From Octopus vulgaris (Eukaryota), in assembly GCA_951406725.2 (NCBI GenBank), contig OX597823.1, positions 78,802,001 to 78,866,000 on the forward strand: a stretch of DNA of 64,000 nucleotides, in the 5' to 3' direction. The translations under genes and the position numbers were made by a program. Under the pieces are notes generated by a model. That model saw nothing but the letters and a program-made list of their open reading frames with translations. It did no database searches and was not told the origin of the DNA. This document shows, piece by piece, positions 8,578 through 63,053 of the stretch (its first letter is position 1; every line of letters begins with the position of its first letter).

Positions 8578-9739
<1,162 letters not shown>

Positions 9740-9745
9740 TATTGT

Positions 9746-10248
9746 TTGGAAGTGTTATCATGTACATTGTTTTGTCTTGGTATAAAAGATGGGCTACAGC
9801 AAATATTCTGCTCAATACCACAGATTTGCTTGTCAGTTGTTTGACCTTAACCAGTTGAGCATGTCCCTTAGTGGCTGACGATATGTGCATCTCTGATCAC
9901 GATCAGAAGTAGTGGGGGAGCATCATAGCCATGTGTTGAGAAGGATTCTTTGGGGTTTGAATAATTCACCTCTGGAAACATGGGTGTTTCGTTCGACATC
10001 CTTAAACAACCCTTATTCAGGGACCTTTTGAGCGGGATGGGTTACTCGATCTGAAGAAAATTCTAACTGGGCCCCACCTGCAAGGTCATGTGCTGTTTAT
10101 CTTGATATGAGATCACCATGTCGCGCACATATGGTTGTGATGCATGTGCCTGGTGTACCCTTATCAGACGGGTAGTCATGATGGGTATACTGGGCTTAGT
10201 ATATTTTACCCCAGTGTCACTTTGATGGCATGAACTGCTCGCTCACTC
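9746..10248 (+). mobile_element. Element X (non-coding retroelement), 5'-truncated copy
   Basis: Homologous to ~10576-11078. Ends CACTC-(AAT)n. Confidence 0.8.
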
Positions 10249-10312
<64 letters not shown>

Positions 10313-10315
<3 letters not shown>

Positions 10316-10540
10316 GCCCTGATGCAGTACCAATGCCCTGATGCAGTACCAATGCCGTGATGCAGTATAAATGCCCTGATGCAGTACCAATGCCCTGATG
10401 CAGTACCAATGCCCTGATGCAGTATAAATGCCCTGATGCAGTACCAATACCCTGATGCAGTATAAATGCCCTGATGCAGTACCAATGCCCTGATGCAGAA
10501 TAAATGCCCTGATGCAGTATAAATGCCCTGATGCAGTACC
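10313..10540 (+). repeat. 12 x 19-bp tandem array of the element X 5' end (AATGCCCTGATGCAGTA[CC/TA])
   Basis: Counted directly. The last unit continues into element X. Confidence 0.95.
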
Positions 10541-11078
10541 AGGCAGTGGCTCTCATGGCTTCTGATCTTAACTGATTGGAAGTGTTATCATGTACATTGT
10601 TTTGTCTTGGTATATAAGATGGGCTACAGCAAATATTCTGCTCAATACCACAGATTTGCTTGTCAGTTGTTTGACCGTAACCAGTTGAGCATGTCCCTTA
10701 GTGGCTGACGATATGTGCATCTCTGATCACGATCAGAAGTAGTGGGGGAGCATCATAGCCATGTGTTGAGAAGGATTCTTTGGGGTTTGAATAATTCACC
10801 TCTGGAAACATGGGTGTTTCGTTCAACGTCCTTAAACAACCCTTATTCAGGGACCATTTGAGCGGGATGGGTTACTCGATCTGAAGAAAATTCTAACTGG
10901 GCTCCACCTGCAAGGTCATGTGCTGTTTATCTTGATATGAGATCACCATGTCGCGCACATATGGTTGTGATGCATGTGCCTGGTGTACCCTTATCAGACG
11001 GGTAGTCATGATGGGTATACTGGGCTTCGTATATTTTACCCCAGTGTCACTTTGATGGCATGCTCTGCTCGCTCACTC
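10522..11078 (+). mobile_element. Element X, full-length (~557 bp)
   Basis: Same start as copies at 11458 and 32606. Same end as 10248, 28375 and 33164. (AAT)n tail. Confidence 0.85.
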
Positions 11079-11159
11079 AATAATAATAATAATAATAATA
11101 ATCAGAAGAAGGAGAACAAGAACAAGAACAAGAACAAGAGCAAGAAGAATTATTTCTAG

Positions 11160-11363
11160 TGGAAGCACAAGGCCTAAAATTTGAGAGAAGGGATTAAGTC
11201 GATTACATAGACCTCAGTAGGCAACTGGTACTTAATTTATCGATCCCGAAAGGATGAAAGGCAAAATCGACCTCGGCGGAATTTGAATACAAAACGTAGC
11301 GGCAGACGATAAACCGATAAGCATTTCGTCCAAAGTGCTAACGATTCTTCCATCTCCCCGCCT
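11160..11363 (-). mobile_element. tRNA-derived SINE with Meta/MESC-like domain
   Basis: Reverse complement contains GCCTTTCATCCTTTCGGGATCGATAAATTAAGTACCAG. Homologous to 13512-13744. Confidence 0.75.
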
Positions 11364-11367
11364 TTAC

Positions 11368-11452
<85 letters not shown>

Positions 11453-11457
11453 TAATA

Positions 11458-11825
11458 AATGCCCTGATGCAGTACCAGTCAGTGGCTCTTATGGCTTCTG
11501 ATCTTAACTGATTGGAAGTGTTATCATGTACATTGTTTTGTCTTGGTATATAAGATGGGCTACAGCAAATATTCTGCTCAATACCACAGATTTGCTTGTC
11601 AGTTGGTTGACCTTAACCAGTTGAGCATGCCCCTTGGTGGGCGACACTACGTACTTTTCTGATCACGATCAGAAGTAGTGGGGGAGCATCATAGCCATGT
11701 GTTGAGAGGAATTCTTTGGGTTTAGAATAATTCACCTCTGGAAACATGGGTGTTTCGTTCAACATCCTTAAAAAACCCTTATTCAGAGACATTTTGAGCA
11801 GGGTCATGCGTTGTTTATCTTCATA
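11458..11825 (+). mobile_element. Element X, internally deleted and 3'-truncated copy
   Basis: Starts AATGCCCTGATGCAGTACC after (AAT)n. Homology is lost after ~11825. Confidence 0.8.
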
Positions 11826-12260
11826 TAAAATCACGATTTTTGCCGCAGTCACTATCTGTGTGACAAATTCACAGTGAAACCCTTTAAGGGTTTGTCAAAT
11901 GGGGAAGATTTCTTTCCTAAATCCTTTCAGTTTCGACTCTTTTTATCAATGCCACCGGCAACAATAACTGCAAATCAAATATTTGGGCAATTACGAAGAC
12001 AAAAGTTACTTAGAATTTTCATATACGCGTATGAACACTGACAACAGGAACAACAATGCACAAGCTCAGAGCTATGAGTGCGTTACAACTGATAGCAGAA
12101 ACAACTGTGAGCCAATAAGGTGAATTACATAATTTATTATTCCCTTGTCCCCTACAAATACACAAACACACAAACACATATAATAGAGATTACTTCGTTA
12201 ACAGACTGAGTGAGAGAGAGAGAGAGAGAGACAAACACGATGTTTTTGGTTAAACTATCA

Positions 12261-12959: not shown

Positions 12960-13511
12960 CTGAAGATAAGGGAGAAAACAAACCAGCATAAGAAAAATAA
13001 TAACACAAAATTAGGGAACAATATACATGGATGTGAGAAGAGCCGACATCTAAATTTATGAGGTGCCTAAGCAGCCGGGTAGTCATATACTTACATTTAT
13101 TGTGTTAAGATGAAAAACCCTCACCCTTGTATTCAAGGTAGGCCCCTGTGCTGATTCCTTGAATATGATTCGATCCCTTTTTATAGTCTACACGTCCTAC
13201 TAAGGTACCGGAAGGTCTGCACTTTTCTTGTAGTCCTCACTTGATCTTATATTGTGCAGTGGTTTCTTCCAATATCCATATATACCTTACGAAAGGTGGA
13301 GTGTCATATCACTGTCAGATGTTAAATGGGGACCTGAATAACTTTTAGTAAATATGCTCAAACCTAGCAACTCTCATGTTGAGGTACCGTCACATGCTAT
13401 CAAAATAGTCAATGTGATAGAGAAAATAAAAATATGCGGGTGAAAATGAAGACCCCCTCCCCGAGACCTGATTAAACAACCACAAGTGAGAAGGAAACGG
13501 TAATAAGCCTT

Positions 13512-13744
13512 AAGGCGGCGAGCTGGCAGAACCGTTAGCACGCCGGGCGAAATGCGTGGCCGTATTTCGTCTGCCGCTACGTTCTGAGTTCAAATTCCGC
13601 CGAGGTCAACTTTGCCTTTCATCCTTTTGGGGTCGATAAATTAAGTACCAGTTACGCACTGGGGTCGATGCAATCGACTTAATACTTATGTCTGTCCTTG
13701 TTTGTCCCCTCTGTGTTTAGCCCCTTGTGGGTAATAAAGAAATA
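13512..13744 (+). mobile_element. tRNA-derived SINE with Meta/MESC-like domain, full monomer
   Basis: A box TGGCAGAACCG and B box GAGTTCAAATTCC. 13-bp TSD GGTAATAAGCCTT at 13499-13511 and 13745-13757. Confidence 0.9.
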
Positions 13745-14831
13745 GGTAATAAGCCTTCTGGTAATGTAGAGCTGGACAGAGTTGAGATTGCTCTAGTACG
13801 GACAGATAAATCAATGTGTGTTGGGTTAAATATTAAACTGAAATGATGAACCTAGCAACACAGTAACGATTCCTAAATATTTTAAAATCCGTTCAACAGC
13901 AGCAATAATAGGATCCCGGAGTATTGATACGTATGTGGTACCATCTTCCTCTATATTTACCCTCGTTGATATCTGTTACATAAATAAATGTCATTTAGAC
14001 GCAAAATCTGCAAGAAACTGTAGCATATCCATCATGCCTGCTTGGATTGTCTCAGGGACACAACGGGCACTCAAAACGCATGCGCAAAACACAACAGCCC
14101 TTACAGATAACGGAAGTGGTAAAAGGAATATAAGGGGTCCGACAGACAGGATCAGCCTCTTTTCCATTTGGGCAGTCAGCTTGTGAACTGCCCACAGCTA
14201 GGACTGCTAGCTCTCTTCCTCTGTATCAGCGCTCTATACGTGGTATCGCGATGCCTGCCTCACAGTGCGTAACATTTGTTAACGAATTCACACACACACA
14301 CACACACACACAGTGTTTCTAAGCATATCATGCCAGGATGCCGTAGCATTTTACAATGAATAAATCGCTGTCGCTAAATTGCCTGAGTTTATTGCTTCCT
14401 CTCCGCAAAACTGCTATTTACCAACACTACACGCATGCCTGTCTTGATTCCCTGAAATTCCACCATTGCAGTCACAAATACACATCTAAACTATATTTTA
14501 AAAAACACTGTATGTTTTCATGTACAGCATGTTCACACTGTTATACGACACCGCATGCAGTTAAACAAGCAAACAATACGGACAACTCATCGCCATCACG
14601 TTTTTATCTCTCTCTCTCTCTCTCTCAACTCCCAAACAATCGTTCTTAACACTCTCTTCAAAAATATCCATGGCTACATTGCCTCTTTACAGAGAGAAAC
14701 AAATCTATCTTTTAAAAAAAATCTATTGTTTGCTGTGCTAAACTATTCGAATGCTTCAATTACCTCTTCGTTATTTAGAAGTGTTTTATTCTTTATGGAT
14801 TTATTGTTTTATTGTTTATGGTTCCTTCCCT

Positions 14832-24359: not shown

Positions 24360-24433
<74 letters not shown>

Positions 24434-26404
24434 GTATACGCAGCAGCCACTGCAGCCACAAAAGAAGCTGGATACTCACACAAACCCATCCAAACAGGAG
24501 TACTACCACCCAAACAAACACTGTGGATAAATAACATCCAAAACAAAATACAAAAAATGAGAAAAGATCTGTCGATTCTGAATGAAATCAGTAGATAATC
24601 AACGCTACTGAGCAACAAAAAGAAAACAAAAATACTCTGCAAATATCACATCACAGAAAAGGATTTACCTGAGATAAAAAAGAAAAGCTGAAGCAAGATA
24701 TCCTTGCCAAAGCATAAAGGATCCGCCTGTACGAGAAACGCCAGCGCTTCTTTGAACAAAACAAAAAGTTCAACTCCAACCCCAAAAAGTTCTACCAAGA
24801 ACTTGGCAAAAATAAAATAGAAGTCACTGCAGCACCAACGGCAGAAGAATTGGAAGAATTCTGGAGAGAAATATGGTCGGCGAACGAACAACAAAAAAAA
24901 AGAAGTATCAAAACAACAAACTCAGCATCTGAGCAATTTGGACCCCCATAACAACTGAAGAGGTCACCCAGGCACTGCAAAGACTAAGCAACTGGAAGGC
25001 ACCTGGGCATGACAAGATCCCCAACTTCTGGATGAAATATCTAACAGGAATGCACAAAAGGCTGGCTGAAAACTTTAACAGCATACTAGCAGAGCCAGAG
25101 ACAATGCGTGAATGGCTCACGAAGGGGAAAACCATCTTAATTCCCAAATCAAATGAGACAGCAAAACCAGAAAACTACAGACCAATAACATGTCTCCCTA
25201 CAATATACAAGGCATTTACTGCAGTGATAACGCAAAGGTTGAATAAGCACCTGGACGAAAACAACCTGTTTCCAGAAGAGCAGAAAGGATGCCGCAAAGG
25301 CTCATATGACTGTAAAGATCAACTAATTAGTTGATCAAATTAGCCATAACTGAAGACAACCATAGAAAGAAGAAAGGCCTCAGTATGACCTGGATAGCTT
25401 ACAAAAAGGCGTTTGATAGCATCCCCCACACATGGATCCTCGAAACACTAACCATTAACAAAGTAGCACCAACCCTTATAAAATTCATAGAGCACTCTAT
25501 GATTAAATGGCAAACCGTGCTACAGCTCCAAAAAAAAGAGGGACTCATGAAAACCAAAGCCATCCCCATTAGAAGAGGAATATTCCAGGGAGACACGCTC
25601 TCTCCACTCCTTTTCTGCTTGGCACTGTCACCTCTATCTGATATGCTAAATAGAACTGGATGCGGATATAAATGTTACGGCAAAACGATCAGCCACCTTT
25701 TATATATGGATGACCTAAAACTATACGCTGCAAATGAGAAACAGCTAGAAACACTATTAAAGACAGTTCATGGATTTACCAAAGAAATAGATATGAAATT
25801 TGCATTAGAAAAATGCGCCAAAGTAACCCTGAAAAGAGGAAAACTAGTTAAGGGTAGCAACATCACACTAGATAAAACCAATGAAATAAAAGAATTAGAC
25901 CAAGGCCAAACTTACAAATACTTAGGAATCCATGAACTAGATAAGACACAACACACACAAATGAAAGAGAAAATAAAAAAAGAATATTATAGACGAGTTA
26001 GATCAATACTAAAAACAGAGCTCAATGCTAAAAACAAGATAATAGGTATTAACACTTTAGCTGTCCCAGTTATAAGTTACAGCTACAATATCCTTAACTG
26101 GACACTAAATGAACTGACCAAAATAGATAGGAAAAGAAGAAAAATAATGACAGGATCTCGGATGCATCACCCAAAATCTGACATAGAAATACTATATATA
26201 CAACGTATAGAAGGTGGTAGAGGCCTTATACAGCTAGAAAACTACTATAAAATAACCACCATTGGACTGAAAAAATATCTACTTCAGAAGGAAGGAAAAG
26301 TGATACAAATAGCGGCAAAACACGAGCAAAACAAAAAACTGTTCTCAGTATTTAAGGAAGCTGACAAATACAAACAAGAAATCATACCACCTAATAAATA
26401 TGAA

Positions 26405-26435
<31 letters not shown>

Positions 26436-27443
26436 AAGAAGAAGAAGAAGAAGAAGAAGAAGAAGAAGAAGAAGAAGAAGAAGAAGAAGAAGAAGAAGAA
26501 GAAGAAGAAACAACAAAAGCTATAAAACAAATGAAATCCAAACTAAAAACAGAACAGCAACGAACCATGATAAAACGATGGCAAGAAAAGCCCCTTCATG
26601 GTAAATACTGGACTAAACTAAACGCGAAAGAAATAGACAAAGAAAAATCTCAGCAATGGTTGAGAAGCTCAGGACTCAAAGCAGAAACAGAGGGATTTTT
26701 AATTGCAGCACAAGACCAAAGCCTCCCCACCAGAAATTACCAAAAACATGTAATGAAAAGAAATATAACAAGTAACTGCAGAATACGTGGAGATGGACAA
26801 GAAACAATAAATCATATTATCTCTGGCTGCCCAGTGCTGGCTAAGAAGGAATATATTCACAGACATGACAGAGCTGGAACCTACATACACTGGAAGCTAT
26901 GCCAACATTATGGAATAACAACAGAAAAAAGATGGTATAGGTACACACCAGAAAAGGTTACAGAAAATGAGAAAGCAACCATACTCTGGGATATGCCGAT
27001 ACACAAAGATAGAGAAATTAAGGCCAACAGACCAGATATAGTTGTCAGAGATCATGAAGAAAAAAACTGCTTTCTAATTGATGTATCAATACCGGCAGAT
27101 GACAACGTGTCTCTAAAAGAAATGGAGAAACTTTCAAAATACCAATACCTGGAAATAGAGGTAACCAGAATGTGGAATCTAAAAACAGAAACAATTCCTA
27201 TCATAGTAGGTGCATTAGGCATGATAAAAAAATATTCAGACAAATACATAACAAAAGCACCAGGACTTACAAACACATATAACATACAGAAAATTGCACT
27301 ACTACGCACTGCACACATCCTACGCAGAACACTTTCCATACAATAACCATGAGAGCATCACAACAAATCACAGCACATCACTAAGGCACACAGAGCTGCG
27401 CTCGGTAGTGAAGTGAAAGCACGCTATAAAAATTAAACTACTG
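24434..27443 (+). mobile_element. R4/Dong non-LTR retrotransposon family A, 5'-truncated, recently inactivated
   Basis: RT motifs NYRPITCL, GIFQGDTLSPLLF and YMDD. Zn-knuckle remnant, RHD, RPDIV..D..K..KY (RLE). Few stops or frameshifts. (AAT)n on both sides. Confidence 0.95.
25032..27346 (+). pseudogene. Disrupted RT-RLE ORF of Dong family A
   Basis: ORFs 25032-25334, 25331-26407 and 26531-27346. Frameshift near 25330. The last two ORFs are in the same frame, separated by one TAA and (GAA)~34. Confidence 0.9.
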
Positions 27444-27872: not shown

Positions 27873-28375
27873 TTGGAAGTGTTATCATGTACGTTGTTTT
27901 GTCTTGGTATAAAAGATGGGCTACAGCAAATATTCTGCTCAATACCACAGATTTGCTTGTCAGTTGTTTGACCTTAACCAGTTGAGCATGTCCCTTAGTG
28001 GCTGACGCTATGTGCGTCTCTGATCACGAGCAGAAGTAGTGGGGGAGCATCATAGCCAAGTGTTGAGAGGGATTCTTTGGGGTTTGAATAGTTCACCTCT
28101 GGAAACATGGGTGGTTCTTTCAACATCCTTAAACAACCCTTATTCAGGGACCGTTTGAGCGGGATGGGCTACTCAACCTGAAGAAAATACTAACTGGGCC
28201 CCACCTGCAAGGTCATGTGCTGTTTATCTTGATATGAGATCACCATGTCGCGCACATATGGTTGTGATGCATGTGCCTGGTGTACCTTTATCAGACGGGT
28301 AGTCATGATGGGTATATTGGGCTTAGTATATTTTACCCCAGTGTCACTTTGATGGCATGAACTGCTCTCTCACTC
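27873..28375 (+). mobile_element. Element X, 5'-truncated copy
   Basis: Starts at the same TTGGAAGTG point as the 9746 copy. (AAT)n on both sides. Confidence 0.85.
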
Positions 28376-28629: not shown

Positions 28630-32145
<3,516 letters not shown>

Positions 32146-32146
32146 T

Positions 32147-32393
32147 AAACAGAAACAATGCATTAGGCATGATAAAAAATATTCAGACAAATATATAACA
32201 AAAACACCAGGACTTACAAACACATATAACATACAGAAAATTGCACTACTAGGCACTGCACACATCCTACGCAAAACACATTCAATTCAGTAACCATCAG
32301 AGCATCATCACAACAAATCACAGCACATGCCCAAAGCACACAGAGCTGTGCTCGGTAGAAAAGTGAAGGCACGTTATAAAAATAAAACTACTG
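32147..32393 (+). mobile_element. 3' tip of Dong family A
   Basis: Matches ~27183-27443. In (AAT)n. Confidence 0.9.
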
Positions 32394-32605: not shown

Positions 32606-32609
<4 letters not shown>

Positions 32610-33164
32610 CCCTGATGCAGTACCAGGCAGTGGCTCTCATGGCTTCTGATCTTAACTGATTGGAAGTGTTATCATGTACATTGTTTTGTCTTGGTATAAA
32701 AGATGAGCTACAGCAAATATTCTGCTCAATACCACAGATTTGCTTGTCAGTTGTTTGACCTTAACCAGTTGAGCATGTCCCTTAGTGGCTGACGATATGT
32801 GCATCTCTGATCATGAGCAGAAGTAGTGGGGGAGTATCATAGCCATGTGTTGAGAGGGATTCTTTGGGGTTTGAATGATTCACCTGTGGAAACATGGGAG
32901 TTTCATTCAACATCCTTAAACAACCCTTATTCAGGGACCTTTTGAGCGGGACGGGTTACTCGACTAGAAGAAAATTCTAACTGAGCCCCATCTGCAACGT
33001 CATGTACTGTTTATATTGATATGAGATCACCATGATGCGCACATATGGTTGTGATGCATGTACCTAGTGTACCCTCTTATCAAATGGGTAGTCATGATGG
33101 GTATATTGGGTTTCGTATGTTTTATTCCAGTGTCACTTTGATGGCATGCACTGCTCTCTCACTC
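32606..33164 (+). mobile_element. Element X, full-length
   Basis: AATGCCCTGATGCAGTACC start and CTCTCACTC-(AAT)n end. Confidence 0.85.
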
Positions 33165-33228: not shown

Positions 33229-33753
33229 GCTCTCATGACCTGAGATCTTAACAGATTGGATATGTTATCACGGATATGTTTTGTCTTGGTATAAAAGATG
33301 GGCTACAGCAAATATTCTGCTCAGCACCACAGATTTGCTTGTCAGTTGCTTGACCCTAACCAATTCAGCTTGACCGTTGGTGGTTGACGATATGTGCATC
33401 TCTGATCACGAGCAGAGTTAATGGGGGAGCATCATAGCCATGTGTTGAGAGGGATTCTTTGGGGTTTGGATAATTCACCTCTTAAAACATGGGTGCTTCG
33501 TTCAAAATTCTTAAACAGCCCTTACTCACGGACTTTTTGAGCGGTAAGGGCTACGTGACGCGAAGAAAATTCTAACAGGGCCCCACCTGCAAGGTCATGT
33601 GCTGTTAATCTTAATATGAGATTATCATGTCGCGCAGATATTGTTGTGATGCATGTGTCTGTTGTACACTAATCAGACGGGTAGTCATGATGGGTATATT
33701 GAGCTTCGTATATTTTACCCCAGTATCACTTTGATGGTAAGCATTATTCTCTC
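33229..33753 (+). mobile_element. Element X, older divergent copy
   Basis: Colinear with 32634-33164, with many substitutions. AAT tail. Confidence 0.8.
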
Positions 33754-36464: not shown

Positions 36465-36994
36465 TGCCAATATATGTACAGGGTGCAGTTTTGCACCGAT
36501 AACCAGCAGTTGGCGGAAGATTTACCTGGGGTTAAACTAGTAGTAACATAGAACAGCCATTTTGATGTGGTGATTAACTTTATTTGTTGGCATAGTTACT
36601 ACTCTCATGTCTTCTTAAGATTCTACAACAAACTACAGAATAGTTGTCTGAATGCCTTTATAAGAAACTCGCTTGATTAGCGTTCACTTCGAGTTAAACA
36701 ACAGCAACAGTTCGAGCAGACACGACCTCTTTGTTCATTCATCTTTTCTTCTACTACAACTGAAGGCAAACGCATTGCACGACTTATCTAGATAATTGTG
36801 ACTCAACGTCACAATCATTCGCGGTGATCTATATAAGAATGCAAATCTCATTAACATCGTGCAAAAATACTTATTCGAATTCTAATTGATTTCTAATTAA
36901 TAAAAAAAATGTCTCCCTTGAAATAAATATTTGAAGTTTTGCTACTTGGAACATCGGCCACAAAAGAGTTCATGAGTTCACTGAATAGGAAAAG

Positions 36995-38400
36995 GTAGAT
37001 GATGACGACGAGGGACGACAATGATGATATTGGTGGTGATGACATCAGCGATAATGATGACGATATGACGAGGACAACGACGACGACGACGACGAAGAAG
37101 AAGAAGAAGAAGAGGAAGAAGAAGAAGGAGAAGGAGAAGGAGAAGTAGAACAAGAAGAAGTAGAAGAAGAGGAAGAAGAAGGAGAAGGAGAAGGAGAAGT
37201 AGAACAAGAAGAAGTAGAAGAAGAGGAAGAAGAAGAAGGAGAAGGAGAAGGAGAAGTAGAACAAGAAGAAGTAGAAGAAGAGGAAGAAGAAGGAGAAGGA
37301 GAAGGAGAAGTAGAACAAGAAGAAGTAGAAGAAGAGGAAGAAGAAGAAGGAGAAGGAGAAGGAGAAGTAGAACAAGAAGAAGTAGAAGAAGAGGAAGAAG
37401 AAGAAGGATAAGGAGGAGAAATAGAACAAGAAGAAGTAGAAGAAGAGGAAGAGGAAGTAGAAGAAGAGGAAGAAGAAGAGGAAGAAGAAGAAGAGGTAGA
37501 AAAAGTAGAAGAGGAAGGAGAAGAAGAGGTAGAAAAAGTAGAAGAAGGAGAAGAGGTAGAAGAAGAAGGAGAAGAAGAAGACGAAGAAGAAGAAGGGGAA
37601 GGAGAAGAGGAAGAAGAAGAAGAAGTAGTAGAAGAAGTAGAGGGAGAAGAAGTAGAAGAAGAAGAAGAAGTAGAAGACGAAGAAGTAGAAGAAGAAGTAG
37701 AAGAAGTAGAAGAAGAAGAAGTAGAAGAAGAAGTAGAAGAAGAAGAAGTAGAAGAAGAAGAAGTAGAAGAAGAAGAAGTAGAAGTAGTAGAAAAAGAGGT
37801 AGAAGAAGTAGAAGAAGAAGAAGGAGAAGAAGAAGTAGAAGAAGAAGTAGGAGAAGAAGAAGTAGAGGAGTAGAAGAAGAAGTAGAAAAGGAGGTAGAAG
37901 AAGTAGAAGAAGAAGAAGGAGAAGGAGAAGTAGAAAAAGAGGTAGAAGAAGTAGAAGAAGAAGAAGGAGAAGTAGAAGAAGAAGAAGTAGAAGAAGAAGT
38001 AGAAGAAGAAGAAGTAGAAAAAGAGGTAGAAGAAGTAGAAGAAAAAAAGGAGAAGAAGAAGGAGAAGAAGAAGTAGAAGAAGAAGAAGAAGAAGTAGAAG
38101 AAGAAGAAGGAGAAGAAGAGGAGAAGAAGAAGAAGGAGAAGAAGAAGGAGGAGAAGAAGGAGAAGAAGAGAAGGAGAAGAAGAAGAAGAAGAAGTAGAAG
38201 AAGAAGAAGGAGAAGAAGAGGAGAAGAAGAAGAAGGAGAAGAAGAAGGAGAAGAAGAAGGAGAAGAAGAAGGAGAAGAAGAAGAAGAAGAAGCAGGAGAA
38301 GAAGAAGGAGAAGAAGAAGAAGAAGAAGAAGGAGAAGAAGAAGAAGAAGAAGAAGGAGAAGGAGAAGGAGAAGGAGAAGAAGAAGAAGTAGAAGAGGAAA
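36995..38400. repeat. ~1.4-kb purine-rich compound trinucleotide tract (GAT>GAC>GAA/GGA/GTA) with 57-60-bp higher-order units
   Basis: Read directly. Unit GAAGAAGGAGAAGGAGAAGGAGAAGTAGAACAAGAAGAAGTAGAAGAAGAG repeats ~6 times at ~37110-37450. Confidence 0.95.
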
Positions 38401-38539
38401 CTAGTATAACAAATTGGCGCAGACAACCAGCTGGGCGAACATTTTGCTTCTTAGTTGAGCTATTACAGAAAACATTAGAATCGAATTAAGCTGCGGAGTT
38501 TAGAAAGAAACTGTGCGTAAAAGCTGTTGCACATATATA

Positions 38540-39248: not shown

Positions 39249-39776
39249 TGTGTGTGTGTGTGGGGGGGGGGCGTGCGTGTTTGTGTATGTTTGATTACGT
39301 ATGTGTATTTGTATCCATGGATATACACCTATGTTTTAAGCAGCATTCTTTTATGACAAATGGTAACTCGGCCATTCGATATTTACAGATCAAGAAATTA
39401 ATTACAAAACCGAAGTAATCCCATTATCTGCCAGGAAATTAATCTGGCAATTTACGATTTTACCATCGTCTGTCTCATTATTTAGAATAATATTAATTTT
39501 TAATATTGGTAACGGAGTCAAACGTTTTTGCGGAGATTATAGTCATACCAAGCCGTCTGACACCGGCCCGTATTAGGATGCAAGATTTCAATTTTAAAGT
39601 AATCAGAAATTTAAACATTGTATTAATATTTCATGTTAATTTATGATCCAAACACCAGCTTAATAACAGGGCATTTTTATTATTTGCAAAATTAATTGAA
39701 ATATTGGCAGAGTATTCCAAAGTAAATGTAGCAAAAAGGTTATCGACTGCAGTACTGGACAATTAGATATTTTTCT

Positions 39777-40368
39777 ACCTATTTCTTTACTACCCACAAG
39801 GGGCTAAACACAGAGGAGACAAACAAGGACGGACAAACGGATTAAGTCGATTACATCGACTCCAGTGCGTAACTGGTTCTTATTTAATCGACCCCGAAAT
39901 AATGAAAGGCAAAGTCGACCTCGGCGGAATTTGAACTCAGAACGTAACGGCAGACGAAATACCTATTTCTTTACTACCCACAAAGGGCTAAACACAGAGA
40001 GGACAAACAAGGACGGACAAACGGATTAAGTCGATAACATCGACTCCAGTGTGTAACTGGTACTTAATTTATCGACCCCAAAATAATGAATGGCAAAGTC
40101 GACCTCGGCGGAATTTGAACTCAGAACGTAACGGCAGACGAAATATCTATTTCTTTACTACCCACAAGGGGCTAAACACAGAGAGGACAAACAAGGACAG
40201 ACAAACGGATTAAGTCGATTATATCGACCCCAGTGCGTAACTGGTACTTAATTTATCGACCTCGAAAAGATGAAAGGCAAAGTCGACCTCGGCGGAATTT
40301 GAACTCAGAACATAGCGGTAGCTAAGCATTTCGCCCGGCGTGCTAACGATTCTGCCAGCTCACCGCCT
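39777..40368 (-). mobile_element. Meta/MESC-like SINE trimer (one head, 184-bp period)
   Basis: Units start at 39777, 39961 and 40145. TTAGATATTTTTCTACCT is duplicated at 39763-39780 and 40389-40406. Confidence 0.9.
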
Positions 40369-41638
40369 TTAAAAAGTAAAATCGACACTTAGATATTTTT
40401 CTACCTTCACAAACCGGAAGAAGGACTAGCAACTTCAATACTAGTCGAATATGAATTCAGAACATAAATATTCGCAAAAGACAGACACTGGATGTTTTGT
40501 CTTTTATGCTACTGGATTTTATGAAACATTTTGAACGATTTTTTGTTAAAAGCATGAAGTCGCAAAAGAAAAAATTGTGCGTATGACACAGTGATAGAAT
40601 AATTAAGAAACTCACGTTTTAAAATCGCAGGAAGGTATATTTGTAGAATACTCGTACGCTGAAATGAAAGACAATCGGTAAATCATCTCATTATTTCATT
40701 AATAACTAGACCATCGAGGAGAGATTCTACACGATTTTTCGATCTGCTTGAAAGAGAAGTCAACGATTCTGCCAACTCGCCGTCTCGTAATCACTGAATA
40801 TTACAGAAAACTATCATTTATACGTCATCAGATTCAGGATATTACAGGAAAAGCTCTGCATATACTTATAAATTTGTTTTTTGATTGATTGATTGATTCT
40901 AGTTTCAGCTCATGAGCTGTGGCCATGCTGGGGCACCGCCACAAAAATATTGAATCACGGGAAAAAGTGGGGATTAAGCAGTAGAAGATGCGGGGGTCGA
41001 GGAGATCTCCGGCGGGACATCAGATGTTCCCAGACCCTGTACTGCCGATTTCTTCTGAAATGAGCCCCCACGAGATGGAGTGGTTGCCGCAGCGAGTGTC
41101 GTTGGTCATTCTCCGCGGCAACGTTGTATCGGTAACGTCCGTAGGGACGCGGTTAAATACGCTTATAATGTGAATAAAAAATGTCAGCTGTGCAAAACAT
41201 TTTATCACTCGTATTTAGAATTTTTTTTTACATTTGCTGAATTGACTATACTTATATATTAGTAATGAAGATAGTCTAGTTGTATATGCATTTAGCTGCT
41301 CACTATTTAAGGTTTTAGAAGGAACGAAAACCGAGCAGGCGAGTGAGCGAGCGGGGAGGCTCCCGGGTCGCGTGACGTAGAATAAAGACGATGTTAATTT
41401 TTCATGTCGTCACGAATTTTGTCACTAAGCGTGGCTGTGTTTTTGAGAAACTGTGTGATAGGGGTCAGTCATACAGCGCAGCAGTTATGGCAAGTGTCTT
41501 AAACTATAACCTGGGGCAACCAAAGCCTGATGAGTGGATTTGGTTGGTGGAAGCAGGATGAAGCCTGTCGTGTATATATATGTGTGTGAGTGTGTGTGTA
41601 TGCATGCATATATGCATACATACATACATATATATATG

Positions 41639-56884: not shown

Positions 56885-58445
56885 TGAGATGTCGATGAAT
56901 GGTTAAATGACCAATCCAAGATTCTTGCAAGTTCCTCAACTGTTACGATGGGATTTTGTTCCACCAGAGATTGAAGGGTGTCCTCGTTGAGCTCTACAGA
57001 TCTTCCAGAGCCTAGTCCTGGAAGACTGACCGCTCAGTACGTCAGGGATGTTCCCTGTCACCGATTTTGTATGTATTGGCTCTTGAGCCATTGCTGTGGA
57101 AGTTGGAAGCGTTAGGGGGCATGCCAAATGATCTGTGGTGTGGAAGGGGAGCCAATACGTATGCGGATGACATGTCCATCATCGTGTCCGAAGAAGAAAA
57201 CGCCATTAAAGGATACGAGGCAGTGGCAGGAGCAAAGGTTAACCAGGACAAGTCGGTCGGCTTGCAACTCGACACCTGGAGGGGCAAGTCGGTGTCGTCC
57301 AATAACGTCGTGGGGCGTTGGACGGAATGTCCGGCTAAGTTGCCAAGGGTCTGGTTCGGTCCAGACCTTCAGATAGAGAAGAATTGGAGCGAGGTCACGG
57401 GCAAGGTGACTGCTCTGACCTGGTCTGGGCGGGCGTTATCTTTGCTAAGGAGGGCGGAGGTGACGCAGATGTTCATAGAATCTGTCATCACCTACCGCCT
57501 GACCATTGTGCCTTGTCCCGATCTGTGGCTGAACAAGTTGGAAAGAATCCTTTTTCGCTTTTTGCAGAAGTGAGGAAAGCCACTTGTGAAGGAGTTCTGC
57601 TGCCAAAAACCGCTAGAGGGTGGGCTAGGGATGCCTTGGGTGAGGATGCGAAAATCCGCGTTAAAGTTGAGACACCTCTGGCTTTACCTGGATGGGGAGC
57701 AAGTGTGGTCACCGCACATAGGGTTCTACCTTCCACAGCTGACGTCCTTAACGGACATTGGTTCATGGATCAAACGAAGACCTAAACTGGCTGATTAGCA
57801 ATTGGGGTGCCTGACGACACTCCAGCTGCTCTCTCGAGCGGGCAATACCAGTAACAGGAGTTCCACTGCGGATTATTGGAATTTATGTCAGACTATATCC
57901 TAGGGGAGACTCTGGACTTCGATAGAAATCAGTTGATCAACCTGTTCAGGAGAACTTTCGGACCGGGTTATCTGGATAATCACCAGAAATCGCTGACTTG
58001 GCAGTGCTACCGTTCGGCTTTGCCTCTTCGAGACAAGCTGTCAAGGCTCAGAAGTGCCGTCTCGCCGACTTGCCCTAAGTGGGGGCGGGATAGAGAAACT
58101 GTCTTGCACGCCTTCGTAGAGTGTCCGGAATTATCGGGACTGATAGCTTTCGTCGAGCAACTGTTGTCAACGATGGGAAGAGTACAGCTATCGGCTGAGG
58201 CTATTGTGCCGTCTCCTTCCCTTAACAGGAAAAGGAAGGCTTGTTTTATTCTGTGTAGTAGCCATACTGAAAGAAATAGTATGGAAGACGTGCGTAAGAG
58301 ATATAGTGACAGGTACCTTCGTGTCCGATCAGGGGTTGGTTAACTTCTTTCGGTACCACCTCGATAGCAAGATCAGTTTAGAGAAGAGATACCTGTCGCA
58401 GAGCATGTTGGCAAAAAGATGGAAGCAAGTAGTGAACGAGCTGTT
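56885..58445 (+). mobile_element. Tx1/L1-clade LINE ORF2 remnant
   Basis: RQGCSLSP.LYVLALEPLL, YADD, GAKVN..KS, GGLGMP, and C-terminal CPK...ETVLHAFVEC. Several stops and frameshifts. Confidence 0.85.
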
Positions 58446-58950: not shown

Positions 58951-59102
58951 TAATTTGAAAACAGAGCAAAACAATGCTGTAATAACTTGAACTGTGATAG
59001 ATACTACATTTAATCAACACACGGAAACCACAATAGAGTACAAATACGAAATATGGTAGCTGTAGCTAAGCTCCTCAGTCCTACTATAACAACTAGCAAT
59101 AA

Positions 59103-59522
59103 GGCGGCGAGCTGGCAGAAACGTTAGACCGCCGGGCGAAATGCTTAGTGGTATTTCGACTGCCGTTACGTTTTGAGTTCAAATTCCGCCGAGGTCGACT
59201 TTGCCTTTCATCCTTCCGGGGTCGATAAATAAAGTACCAGTTTCGCACTGGGGTCGATGTAATCGACTTAATCCTTTTGTATGTCCTTGTTTGTGCCCTC
59301 TGTGTTTAGCTCCCTGTGGGTAGTAAAGAAATAGAAATAGGTATTTCATCTGTCGTTACGTTCTGATTTCAAATTCTGCCGAGGTCATCTTTGCCTTTCA
59401 TCCTTTCGGGGTCGATAAATAAAGTACCAGTTTCGCACTGTGGTCGATGTAATCGACTTAATCCCTTTGTCTGTCCTTGTTTGCCCCCTCTATGTTTAGC
59501 TCCTTGTGGGTAGTAAAGAAAT
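59103..59522 (+). mobile_element. Meta/MESC-like SINE dimer
   Basis: Full monomer plus a headless unit joined at GAAATAG|GTATTTC. Flanked by TATAACAA..AGCAATAA direct repeats. Confidence 0.9.
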
Positions 59523-59601
59523 ATATAACAAACAGCAATAAATCATGAAGAACACACACATACACACACGCACGCGCACAGATATCTACATACACGCATA
59601 T

Positions 59602-60558: not shown

Positions 60559-60891
60559 GTGTGTGTGAAGGCACATGACCCAATGGTTAAGGTGTTGCCA
60601 TTTCGATAGCTTGATTGCGGGTCTAACAGCTTGATCCCGGACCTAGCGGTGCATGGTGTTCTTGCGCAAGACACTTCATTCGGCATTTCTCCAGCCGATT
60701 CAGCTGTAAATGGGTCATTCTGTGGCGGACTGGCCTCACGATGAGTGGGGAATACTGGCCGGCTCGTGAAATTCTTTTTCGCATGTGAGTTCCGTACCCC
60801 ATTTATGAACTCATTTGCATACTGCCAATCAGAGCTCAACTATCAAACTAATTCATGCGCGCATAAGAAGCGATGGGTGATAAGATATGAA

Positions 60892-61120
60892 GGCGGCGAG
60901 CTGGCGGAGACGTTAGCGCGCCGGCCGAAGTGCTTCGCAGTATTTCGCCCGTCGCTACGTTCTGAGTTCAACTTCCGCCGAGGTCGACTTTGCCTTTCAT
61001 CCTTTCGGGGTCGATAAATTAAGTACCAGTTACGCACTGGGGTCGATATAATCGACTTAATCCGTTTGTCTGTCCTTGTTTGTCCCCTCTATGTTTAGCC
61101 CCTTGTGGGCAATAAAGAAA
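60892..61120 (+). mobile_element. Meta/MESC-like SINE monomer
   Basis: A and B boxes. GATAAGATA TSD. Confidence 0.9.
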
Positions 61121-61946
61121 CAGATAAGATAAAACCACAAGGGTAAGGAATGACCATGCTTCTTTTCTTTTTTAAGAATGCTTGTTGTTCTTGTTCTTGT
61201 TTCAACCATGGCTGCCTCTGCGTAGATATTTGTGTTTTTGTTTACTTTGTAAAACAGTAAGGGGACAGGGTTGCTAGCACATCACACTCTACCCACATTT
61301 TTCTCATCCACATCTTTATCATATGGGGCCCTAACAAAATCATATGGGGCCCTAACGATAGTAGGTATAGATGCAAATCTATCTAATTACTTGTCTACTT
61401 CTAAAATCAGGCATAACTTGACCAATCGATCGATTTACAACACCATTCTTCGTCTTGAGTTTATTTGGTAGAGTGTGTTTCTTACTTTACAACAAGGTCA
61501 AGGTGAGCTCTGATTGGCTGTGTGCAAACGAGTTTATTACTGGGGTCCGGAACTGTCATCGAAAGAAATTTCGCGGCCGGCTCGCCCCCAGCCAACGAAG
61601 GTAGAATCAGGTGAAAGCTAAAACGTTGCAAAGCGCATTGTAACCAGCAATGTACAGCAACATCCGATACTTTGATCGATCAAGTGATCACGTAGTAATA
61701 TAATGTAAATAGTTTTCTGTTAGTTTCACTGAACTCGAAACTCATTGAATTGTAGCATAACTGGATGAAGTGGTTACAGATACGGGAATTCTCAATGTAA
61801 TCCTTAAACAAAGTTAGCAAGACGGTGTGTAACAAAGCTGAGTCGCTGAATTGCAATTACAGCCACACCTAAGTCTGTGCCTTTTCAATTTTACTCATAA
61901 AGTATAAGTCGACAGAGAGCTACGGAAAAAAAAAATCTCCCCTTAA

Positions 61947-62352
61947 AGCGGCGAGCTGGCAGAAACGTTAGCGCGCCGGGCGAAATCCTTAGCGGTATTT
62001 CGCCCGTCGCTACGTTCTGAGCTCAAATTCCGCTGAGGTCGACTTTGCCTTTCATCCTTTCGGGGTCGATAAATTAAGTACCAGTTACGCACTGGGGTCG
62101 ATATAATCGACTTAGCACGTTTGTCTGTCCTTGTTTGTCCTCTCTGTGTTTAGCCCCTTGTGGGTAGTAAAGAAATAGGTATTCCCCCCGTCGCTACGTT
62201 CTGCGTTCAAATTCCGCTGAGGTCGACTTTGCCTTTCATCCTTTCGGGGTCGACAAATTAAGTACCAGTTACGCACTGGGATCGATATAATCTACTTAAT
62301 CCGTTTATCTGTCCTTGTTTGTCCCCTCTGTTTAGCCCCTTGTGGCAATAAA
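61947..62352 (+). mobile_element. Meta/MESC-like SINE dimer
   Basis: Same GAAATAG|GTATT junction near 62178. AAAAAA.ATCTCC direct repeats on both flanks. Confidence 0.9.
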
Positions 62353-63053
62353 GGAAAAAAATATCTCCTCTCTTGTTGCCTCGATGTAGAATCGAATCTC
62401 AAACATTATAACTACTAAATAAATTGCTCTTTATGACTACAACAATTTGTAGAAAACAACAAGAACATGCGTGTATAAATATATAAATATTTAATATATA
62501 TTTATTGAATATAAACAGAATATGGTGTTCTTTCTCCTTCTTTCCTCTTCGTTCTGTTTCTATCACTTTCATCTTTCCTTTCCATTCTTTTACTATCATT
62601 TCCATCTCTCCGCTATCAATAGCCATAATTTAGTAATCTCCGACCACAATATCTGCAGCTATCGAGAATAGCAATATGTTATTTATTTATTGCCAAATAT
62701 GTTTGTTTACTTTGTTCAGTGGATTATAATCGGTAGCTTCATTCATTTGCCAGAAAATGAAAGATAAATTAGTTTTAAACACAGTTCAGTGGAAATATTT
62801 ACTTTTACACGTGCCAATCAACAATATAGTTTAAACATTTACACATTTTATGCATTGGCAGTGATTTTTGTTCCAAGTCGACAAATATTTCTCTTCGTGA
62901 TTGCATTTTAAGAGTTATTTTTTTTCTTCCATTGTGTTGCTATTGCTGTAATTGCGATCTTTGTTCTGCTCTGCTTTCAGGTCAGTCTAGATTGATACGA
63001 CCTATTATCAAAGGTGTTACAGCCGTGACAATCCATTTATTATTATTATTATT

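What the first reader, a model, noticed from the sequence alone, without database searches (positions are those of the whole stretch)
10522..11078. Element X: unidentified ~560-nt structured non-coding retroelement that lives in (AAT)n next to Dong/R4
Seen: six copies (9746, 10522, 11458, 27873, 32606, 33229), all on the + strand like the adjacent Dong copies and all preceded by (AAT)n. Five end at the same CTC-(AAT)n. Three share an exact 5' start and the others are 5'-truncated. There is no ORF, no tRNA-like A/B box pair, and no visible match to either Dong 3'UTR here. The + strand folds by eye into nested stems (GCCC/GGGC, UACCAGG/CUUGGUA, CAGUG/CAUUG, GCUUCUGAUC/GAUUGGAAGU, AGCAAAU/AUUUGCU, GUCAGUU/GGCUGAC, UACCC/GGGUA, AUACUGGG/CCCAGUGU), several of which rely on G-U pairs that fail on the other strand. 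Known: RLE-type elements mobilise by target-primed reverse transcription, and silkworm Dong targets TAA repeats. Inference: a non-tRNA, structured parasite RNA (or a host ncRNA) mobilised in trans by the Dong RT-RLE, forming a two-component microsatellite-targeting system. I cannot tell whether repeat libraries already name it.
Basis: partly seen in the sequence, partly recalled or inferred. Interest (0 to 1): 0.8.

Follow-up and report, generated by a model that had tools for sequence, protein, structure and literature searches.

The report
Non-coding parasite of octopus Dong retrotransposons
A 557-base non-coding repeat with at least 14,000 copies sits almost always inside AAT microsatellites of what is likely an octopus genome; it likely borrows the enzyme of the Dong retrotransposons that use the same sites, possibly by imitating a hairpin in their tails rather than sharing their sequence.

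Summary
X is a discrete 557-nt retroposon with fixed ends: 14,768 exact 3' ends genome-wide, 79.9% followed directly by (AAT)n; about 49,000 copies by sampling. Copies are 5'-truncated, 5'-inverted or 5'-duplicated, form subfamilies, and the youngest differ by 0.5%. X is not a LINE 3'UTR. It has no homology to full-length Dong A or B, no ORF, no Rfam hit, and no tRNA boxes or ribozyme motif. It folds on the sense strand only (z -2.9 to -4.7), but covariation was not shown. Evidence for Dong as mobiliser: same target, strand and tail phase, matching ages, and four direct Dong A/X junctions. New here: octopus Dong families share a covarying 3'UTR hairpin, and X has a candidate copy about 56 nt before its tail. 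That match is significant in a post-hoc profile score but not in a covariance model, so it is suggestive only. Transcription is unshown. Closest precedents are EhSINE1/EhLINE1 and the R2 SIDEs. Verdict: a new variant of a known kind, probably already present unnamed in repeat libraries that I could not search.

The parts
10522..11078 (+). Element X, full-length copy of the youngest subfamily (557 nt)
10313..10521 (+). 11 tandem copies of X's own first 19 nt, placed 5' of the full copy
10525..10624 (+). predicted 5' stem domain (X4-103); many 5' truncations fall at X76-98
   Evidence: segment z -2.5
10625..10794 (+). segment X104-273, also carried inside an older TA-flanked MITE family (Y)
10983..11022 (+). 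candidate Dong-like 3' recognition hairpin (X462-501), about 56 nt before the tail
   Evidence: 4.9 bits, E 1.1; 0 of 200 shuffles
11079..11102 (+). (AAT)8 3' tract
10249..10311 (+). (AAT)21 tract between two X insertions
9743..10248 (+). X, 5'-truncated (52-557)
11458..11837 (+). X, full 5' start, 3' part lost or decayed (1-345, 393-428)
27873..28375 (+). X, 5'-truncated (55-557)
32606..33164 (+). X, full length, 94% to majority
33229..33753 (+). X, older 5'-truncated copy (from 28), degenerate 3' end
8578..9624 (+). Dong/R4-type LINE family A, 5'-truncated, ends in (AAT)n
24433..27443 (+). Dong/R4-type LINE family A, 5'-truncated, broken ORF
28717..32002 (+). Dong/R4-type LINE family B, 5'-truncated; ORF 28778-31786 with RT, CCHC finger and PD..D..K nuclease motif
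31933..31971 (+). Dong B 3'UTR hairpin, the covarying motif shared by Dong families
   Evidence: 39.5 bits; family B was in the training set
32159..32393 (+). Dong A 3' end fragment

Best explanation
X is a high-copy, non-coding 557-nt retroposon that sits in (AAT)n microsatellites and is likely copied in trans by the reverse transcriptase and restriction-like endonuclease of the Dong/R4 LINEs that use the same sites. Shown: fixed ends, AAT target and strand, 5' truncation, inversion and duplication, successive subfamilies, and no coding or tRNA part. Inferred steps: (1) a unit-length RNA starting at about AATGCCC is made, by an unknown promoter. (2) Dong protein binds it, possibly through a 3' hairpin shaped like the hairpin that Dong families share in their 3'UTRs. 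(3) The protein nicks the (ATT)n strand and primes reverse transcription at the CACUC-(AAU) end. (4) Template jumps give the 5' repeats and the occasional Dong A/X chimera. Family A (older) and family B (very young) would have served in turn.
For: Target: 11,795 of 14,768 exact 3' ends are followed by CAATAATAA; about 22 distinct GAA tails. In 89 less-biased 3'-intact copies, 82 have an AAT tail, 0 have ATT, and 65 of 88 have AAT upstream. Filled site: in L015, X splits the AAT tract of another repeat whose halves are contiguous in L193 and L141. Retroposition marks: 48 of 61 hits reach the 3' end while 5' starts scatter; inverted 5' parts in L115/116 and L124. Dong link: 86 of 96 Dong 3' ends carry AAT in the same phase; 34 of 34 X-Dong neighbour pairs lie on the same strand. 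5'-terminal duplications occur in 8 of 156 X copies and, by eye, 4 of 19 full-length Dong copies. Three direct Dong A to X junctions with 0-2 nt microhomology and no rest of A downstream, plus one X-end to A junction. Ages: B 0.24% pairwise, youngest X 0.54%, A 3.3% pairwise, X median 3.5% from its majority. Hairpin: the Dong motif covaries (9 of 11 pairs change on both sides; covariation score reached by 0 of 500 shuffles). X's last 110 nt scores 18.3 (0 of 200 shuffles), inside the 9-28 range of held-out Dong families; other X segments score 3-6. Of 15 hits >=18 in 796,800 random positions, 11 look like Dong 3'UTRs, 3 are X and 1 is unexplained.
Against: No RNA or biochemical evidence. The runs laid were contigs, and the best 'RNA' run is only a guess. 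The covariance model gave the X hairpin 4.9 bits, E 1.1 in 557 nt; it also missed held-out Dong A in the window, so that test is inconclusive. The profile score was designed after I had seen the candidate. X's hairpin lies about 56 nt from the tail against roughly 35-55 nt in most Dong families, and X's last 30 nt hold 4 A against 9-19. Chimeras could be deletions inside same-strand clusters; 2 of the 3 came from loci chosen for Dong A, none involved B, and the L095 junction is single-copy. Same-strand pairing follows from a shared target and is not independent. The B, A and youngest-X sets were best hits, so they are biased young. I had no non-Dong control for 5' duplications.
Confidence: 0.75

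Rival explanations
1. X is an internally deleted derivative (SIDE-like) of a Dong family that is extinct, rare or unsampled. It would still be Dong-mobilised, but the hairpin would be inherited rather than mimicked.
For: The candidate hairpin resembles the Dong motif. At least 16 Dong 3'UTR clusters occur in my loci, and a paper lists 51 Dong-R4 families in O. vulgaris. I saw 5' ends only for families A and B.
Against: No blastn, nhmmer or six-frame match to A, B or 89 Dong ORF pieces. Loose ends in 72,877 contigs exposed the MITE Y but no parent (only the best-supported ends were shown). X's tail is not A-rich like Dong tails.
Confidence: 0.15
2. X copies are retrocopies of one conserved host non-coding RNA gene, picked up by the Dong protein.
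For: Slow change: 6-7 differences in 170 nt from the Y majority, against 10.4% mean decay of Y copies (p about 0.001-0.002). Strand-specific fold. An X-like stretch occurs in an O. bimaculoides gene model.
Against: No Rfam hit. Several co-segregating subfamilies. All 30 best copies lie in AAT tracts with unrelated flanks, and none looks like a source gene.
Confidence: 0.06
3. X is mobilised by another machinery, such as a Penelope-like element, as animal retrozymes are.
For: X forms short head-to-tail runs, and a hammerhead-like repeat with an internal AAT tract often flanks it.
Against: X has no compact hammerhead. That repeat is a target that X interrupts. The direct junctions found are with Dong A (only Dong A and B were screened).
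Confidence: 0.03
4. X is merely the 3'UTR of a LINE.
For: 5' truncations are common.
Against: 42 of 89 copies start within the first 4 nt and 55 of 89 within the first 25. Upstream lies AAT or unrelated DNA.
Confidence: 0.01

Closest known systems
EhSINE1 / EhLINE1 of Entamoeba histolytica (PMC2996970, PMC1635306; passages read)
   Same: 500-600 nt, no ORF, no identified precursor small RNA, partner LINE with a restriction-like endonuclease
   Different: EhSINE1 shares about 70 nt of 3' sequence with EhLINE1, is polyadenylated and has no specific target. X shares no detectable sequence with Dong A or B, targets (AAT)n and has tens of thousands of copies.
R2 and R2/R1 SIDEs of Drosophila (PMC3414825; passages read)
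   Same: non-autonomous partners of a site-specific RLE element; 3' structure kept while sequence diverges; template jumps in vivo
   Different: SIDEs keep recognisable 5' ribozyme and 3'UTR sequence of the parent and insert in 28S rDNA. X shows neither homology nor a ribozyme motif.
Dong of Bombyx mori and Rex6 (TAA-repeat targeting as stated in PMC1635306); Dong-R4 families of O. vulgaris (PMC13282606; parts 1-2 of 3 and the supplement read)
   Same: the proposed autonomous partner: RT, CCHC and PD..D..K domains, (AAT)n target; that paper lists 1129 recent Dong-R4 insertions in 5 families
   Different: These are autonomous. That paper describes no partner, but it holds 1279 unclassified SINE and 1102 unknown families whose sequences I could not see.
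tRNA-derived cephalopod SINEs OK, OR1, OR2 and Ceph-SINEs (names from PMC4758252 passages; sequences not seen)
   Same: short, high-copy, non-autonomous
   Different: They have tRNA heads with A/B boxes; X has none.
Sadhu of Arabidopsis (PMC2848041; abstract only)
   Same: non-autonomous retroposon attributed to LINE mobilisation
   Different: plant element; a partner of RLE type or a microsatellite target is not mentioned in the abstract

Membership tests
SINE, strict (pol III, tRNA/7SL/5S head) | head from tRNA, 7SL or 5S with A/B boxes | tested here: not met
   ARAGORN 0; Rfam 0 at gathering, one chance snoRNA hit outside X; best B box has 3 mismatches, and no A box with fewer than 3 mismatches lies in the first 40 nt (box consensus recalled)
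SINE, strict | transcription by RNA polymerase III | not testable with these tools
   only contigs were laid; three internal T4 runs on the sense strand
Non-autonomous non-LTR retroposon (broad) | non-coding, fixed 3' end with simple-repeat tail, variable 5' truncation, dispersed high copy number | tested here: met
Non-autonomous non-LTR retroposon (broad) | target-site duplication | tested here: inconclusive
   insertion inside (AAT)n hides any duplication; flanks are intact at a filled site
Stringent SINE/LINE pair | 3' tail sequence shared with the partner LINE | tested here: not met
   no blastn or nhmmer match to Dong A, B or other Dong 3'UTRs in 241 sequences
Stringent SINE/LINE pair | 3' stem-loop structure shared with the partner LINE | tested here: inconclusive
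   profile score positive; covariance model not significant
SIDE (internally deleted LINE) | both ends homologous to an autonomous element | tested here: not met
   for families A and B; 5' ends of other Dong families were not obtained
R2-type SIDE or retrozyme | HDV-like or hammerhead self-cleaving ribozyme | tested here: not met
   0 HDV-like hits (descriptor had no positive control; 1 of 100 shuffles hit). One CUGAnGA/GAAA pair 100 nt apart with a 2-bp stem II, and no 5' ends at the implied cut.
Known ncRNA (Rfam) | match to a family model | tested here: not met
Covarying structured RNA | compensatory base changes across copies | tested here: inconclusive
   no two-sided change in a stem; transition-only test p 0.16-0.52 on 10-14 shared changes; copies are too alike for power
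Dong/R4 clade (for the partner LINE) | single ORF with RT, CCHC and PD..D..K RLE, TAA-repeat target | tested here: met
   (best solved relatives are R2 proteins)
Dong/R4 clade (for the partner LINE) | RT phylogeny groups with R4/Dong references | not tested
   no reference sequences were at hand; the clade name rests on domains, target and recall
Named Dfam/Repbase family | match to a library consensus | not testable with these tools
   no such library is offered; the paper's Zenodo library was not visible

The most novel reading that the evidence does not exclude
X is a head-less parasite RNA that hijacks microsatellite-targeting Dong/R4 proteins by shape mimicry of a covarying 3'UTR hairpin common to many Dong families, with no sequence homology to any of them. 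This would have let one RNA lineage persist under selection since before the Y MITE expansion and switch from family A to family B.
Probability: 0.3. Interest if true: 0.75.

Novelty: new variant of a known kind. Interest (0 to 1): 0.5.

Why it matters
How R4/Dong proteins choose their RNA template is, to my knowledge (recall), much less studied than for R2. The covarying 39-nt hairpin and a natural non-coding cargo that may copy it make that question directly testable, and they define a candidate minimal template for a site-specific RLE system. X would add a microsatellite-targeted case to the few non-tRNA partners of RLE LINEs. At roughly 20,000-100,000 copies it is also of the order of 1% of the genome and contaminates Octopus gene models.

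Tried and rejected
LINE 3'UTR: rejected (fixed 5' end). SIDE of Dong A or B: no homology; weak antisense likeness of X237-323 to the Dong A RT region had E 2-10. A by-eye RT-like reading of a minus frame gave nothing in Pfam, blastp or the protein search; the profile HMM was poorly built, so only its blastp part counts. Ribozymes: HDV-like, hammerhead, twister-like and pistol-like motif scans were negative. The first hammerhead control was a mutated copy and failed; a second control showed a compact core. Structural selection: the first test looked significant (7 of 29 against 229 of 440 pair-breaking, p 0.004) but was confounded by transitions and CpG and disappeared on control. The covariance model was not significant for X and blind to held-out Dong A. 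An amplified chimera family: the L095 junction has 1 copy. A GAA-tailed subfamily: about 22 sites only. Expression: small shares in metatranscriptomes and one guessed RNA run are not evidence. Earlier scan notes: none found. Ten literature searches found no description of X or of a Dong-dependent partner; the 2015 octopus genome paper was not held.

Full report
Observation. Self-comparison finds six + strand copies at the stated places, 88-98% identical to the 10522 copy. Five end at CTC-(AAT)n and three share the 5' start. The 10522 copy is preceded by 11 tandem repeats of its own first 19 nt. The own genome G000 has 2.8 Gb. It is inferred to be an octopus, because the only 2 protein hits (of 52 candidates) to a read-through frame of X are gene models with an X-derived stretch, one named O. 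bimaculoides. The species was not established.

Abundance and target. All 40 scored genome hits are full length and at least 99% identical, and the 30 fetched have the same ends in AAT-type flanks. An internal 20-mer occurs 14,229 times with control 0. The 3' 20-mer occurs 14,768 times, 11,795 of them followed directly by CAATAATAA; GAA tails number about 22. Forty 10-kb stretches taken at round coordinates held 7 copies, giving about 49,000 (95% interval 20,000-101,000), while AAT/ATT runs cover 0.6% of that sample. In 89 3'-intact copies from pattern-chosen (first 14 Mb of C1) or random loci, 82 have an AAT tail, none an ATT tail, and 42 start within the first 4 nt. In L015, X splits the AAT tract of another repeat that is uninterrupted in L193 and L141. 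Runs under five organism labels hold at least 0.91 of its words (one row may be the source), and organism E shows its own frequent substitutions.

What it is not. It is not a LINE 3'UTR, because the 5' end is fixed. Full-length Dong B (about 5.0 kb) and A (about 4.1 kb) were recovered from 20 loci, and neither matches X by blastn. nhmmer over 241 sequences found only E 2-10 noise outside X and family Y. Six-frame searches gave no Pfam family and no Dong homology. Rfam, ARAGORN, A/B-box and ribozyme scans were negative; those motifs were recalled and the HDV descriptor had no positive control.

Age and structure. Copies fall into subfamilies. The youngest 26 differ by 0.54%, and 100 less-biased copies lie a median 3.5% from the majority. 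Loose ends in public contigs led to family Y, a roughly 490-bp TA-flanked MITE that contains X104-273. In that segment Y copies have decayed 10.4% from their majority, while X differs from it at 6-7 of 170 positions (p about 0.001-0.002). The X lineage is therefore old and slow; that Y captured X rather than the reverse is inferred. Folding is strand-specific: z -2.88 against -0.23 for the window copy and -4.65 against +0.79 for the older majority (25 shuffles). Covariation was not shown. An apparent shortage of pair-breaking lineage changes vanished when only non-CpG transitions were compared.

Link to Dong. The partner encodes RT, CCHC and PD..D..K motifs, and its best solved relatives are R2 proteins. 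The name Dong/R4 rests on these domains, the TAA target (PMC1635306, passages) and recall. Of 96 Dong 3' ends, 86 carry AAT in the same phase. All 34 X-Dong neighbour pairs within 300 nt in X-selected or random loci are co-oriented; one opposite pair sits in the Dong-selected locus L053. 5'-terminal duplications occur in both: 8 of 156 X copies and, by eye, 4 of 19 Dong copies. Three loci join Dong A directly to a 3' part of X with 0-2 nt microhomology and no rest of A downstream, and one joins X's 3' end to the last 114 nt of A. These fit template jumps, which R2 makes in vivo (PMC3414825, passages), but deletions in clusters give the same picture. Ages overlap: A 3.3% and B 0.24% pairwise, both from best-hit sets.

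The hairpin. Dong 3'UTRs unrelated in sequence share a motif: a stem, a 4x2 internal loop (YTAG/TC), a 5-bp stem and an nGGnn loop. On 17 sequences from six family groups, 9 of 11 pairs change on both sides and 0 of 500 shuffles reach the covariation score (relatedness inflates this, and I chose the instances with a descriptor that rewarded the inner stem). X has one candidate, at 462-501. A covariance model ranked it first of 7 within X with all 11 pairs formed, but at 4.9 bits and E 1.1; the same model missed held-out Dong A. A simpler profile-plus-pairing score recovered all 9 held-out Dong tests (0-4 of 100 shuffles) and gave X's last 110 nt 18.3 (0 of 200), against 3-6 for five other segments. 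In 796,800 random positions, 15 hits reached 18: 11 Dong-like by eye (5 of them training sequences), 3 X and 1 unexplained. That score was set up after I saw the candidate, so the result is suggestive.

Mechanism. Shown: ends, target, strand, truncation pattern and subfamilies. Inferred: a unit-length RNA (repeat units begin at AATG or TAAATG, so the RNA start likely lies there), binding by Dong protein, and priming on nicked (ATT)n. The promoter and expression are unknown. Confidence is 0.75 for Dong mobilisation and about 0.45 that the hairpin is the recognition signal.

Comparison and novelty. EhSINE1 is the nearest precedent: non-tRNA, 500-600 nt, RLE partner, but it shares about 70 nt with its LINE (PMC2996970, passages). 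R2 SIDEs keep parental ends. X works like these but fails the strict SINE and SIDE tests. Ten searches found no account of it. A 2026 O. vulgaris annotation lists 1279 unclassified SINE and 1102 unknown families (PMC13282606, parts 1-2 of 3 and supplement), so an unnamed library entry is likely; that library, Dfam and Repbase were not visible. Other papers seen: PMC9115989, PMC4758252, PMC4640811, PMC2657916, PMC8967140 and bioRxiv 10.64898/2026.07.22.740005 (passages), PMC5786205 (introduction and passages), PMC2848041 (abstract). Verdict: real, a new variant of a known kind, interest 0.5.

Noticed in passing
L171-L220 (e.g. L178, L196); shares window 10625-10794: Family Y: a roughly 490-bp TA-flanked MITE with about 120-bp imperfect inverted repeats carrying X104-273; 360 and 580 exact motif matches genome-wide; copies about 87% identical to their majority.
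   Followed up: yes
window 31933-31971 and Dong 3'UTRs in alignment A2: A covarying 39-nt hairpin shared by at least six Dong family groups whose 3'UTRs are otherwise unrelated; a candidate template-recognition signal for Dong/R4.
   Followed up: yes
L193:100-480, L141, L086, L090: A repeat with a tRNA-like stretch, an internal (AAT)n tract and a compact hammerhead-like core (Penelope-like or SINE-like); a frequent landing site for X and Dong.
   Followed up: partly
L081-L100, 5' ends of Dong A and B: Both families have a GGACG(T) word near the 5' end (DPE-like, recalled) and a GTAAGT splice-donor-like word about 130 nt in; B has a 1270-aa ORF intact in 4 of 10 copies examined.
   Followed up: no
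window 26408-26490: A (GAA)n expansion inside the Dong A ORF gives a poly-Glu stretch; alignments of several other A copies break at the same place.
   Followed up: no
window 11188-11374, 13508-13749, 39776-40372, 59100-59527, 60890-61127, 61941-62371: A different abundant repeat of about 185-240 nt, present as tandem runs on both strands; probably one of the common octopus SINE-like families.
   Followed up: no
L164, minus strand, about 2129 from the reverse end: The one hit of the Dong hairpin score (21.9) that is neither Dong-like nor X, with no AAT tail nearby.
   Followed up: no
P0001, P0002: Two public gene models, one named O. bimaculoides, include an antisense X-derived stretch as a predicted exon, probably a mis-annotation.
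   Followed up: partly
window 57016-58343 and 36893-38489: Fragments of a second, unrelated RT element (L1/Tx1-like by eye) and a 1.5-kb GAA/GGA-rich simple repeat.
   Followed up: no
runs X15, X17: X-like contigs occur at low depth in runs labelled insect and marine metatranscriptomes; contamination, diet or mislabelling was not resolved.
   Followed up: no
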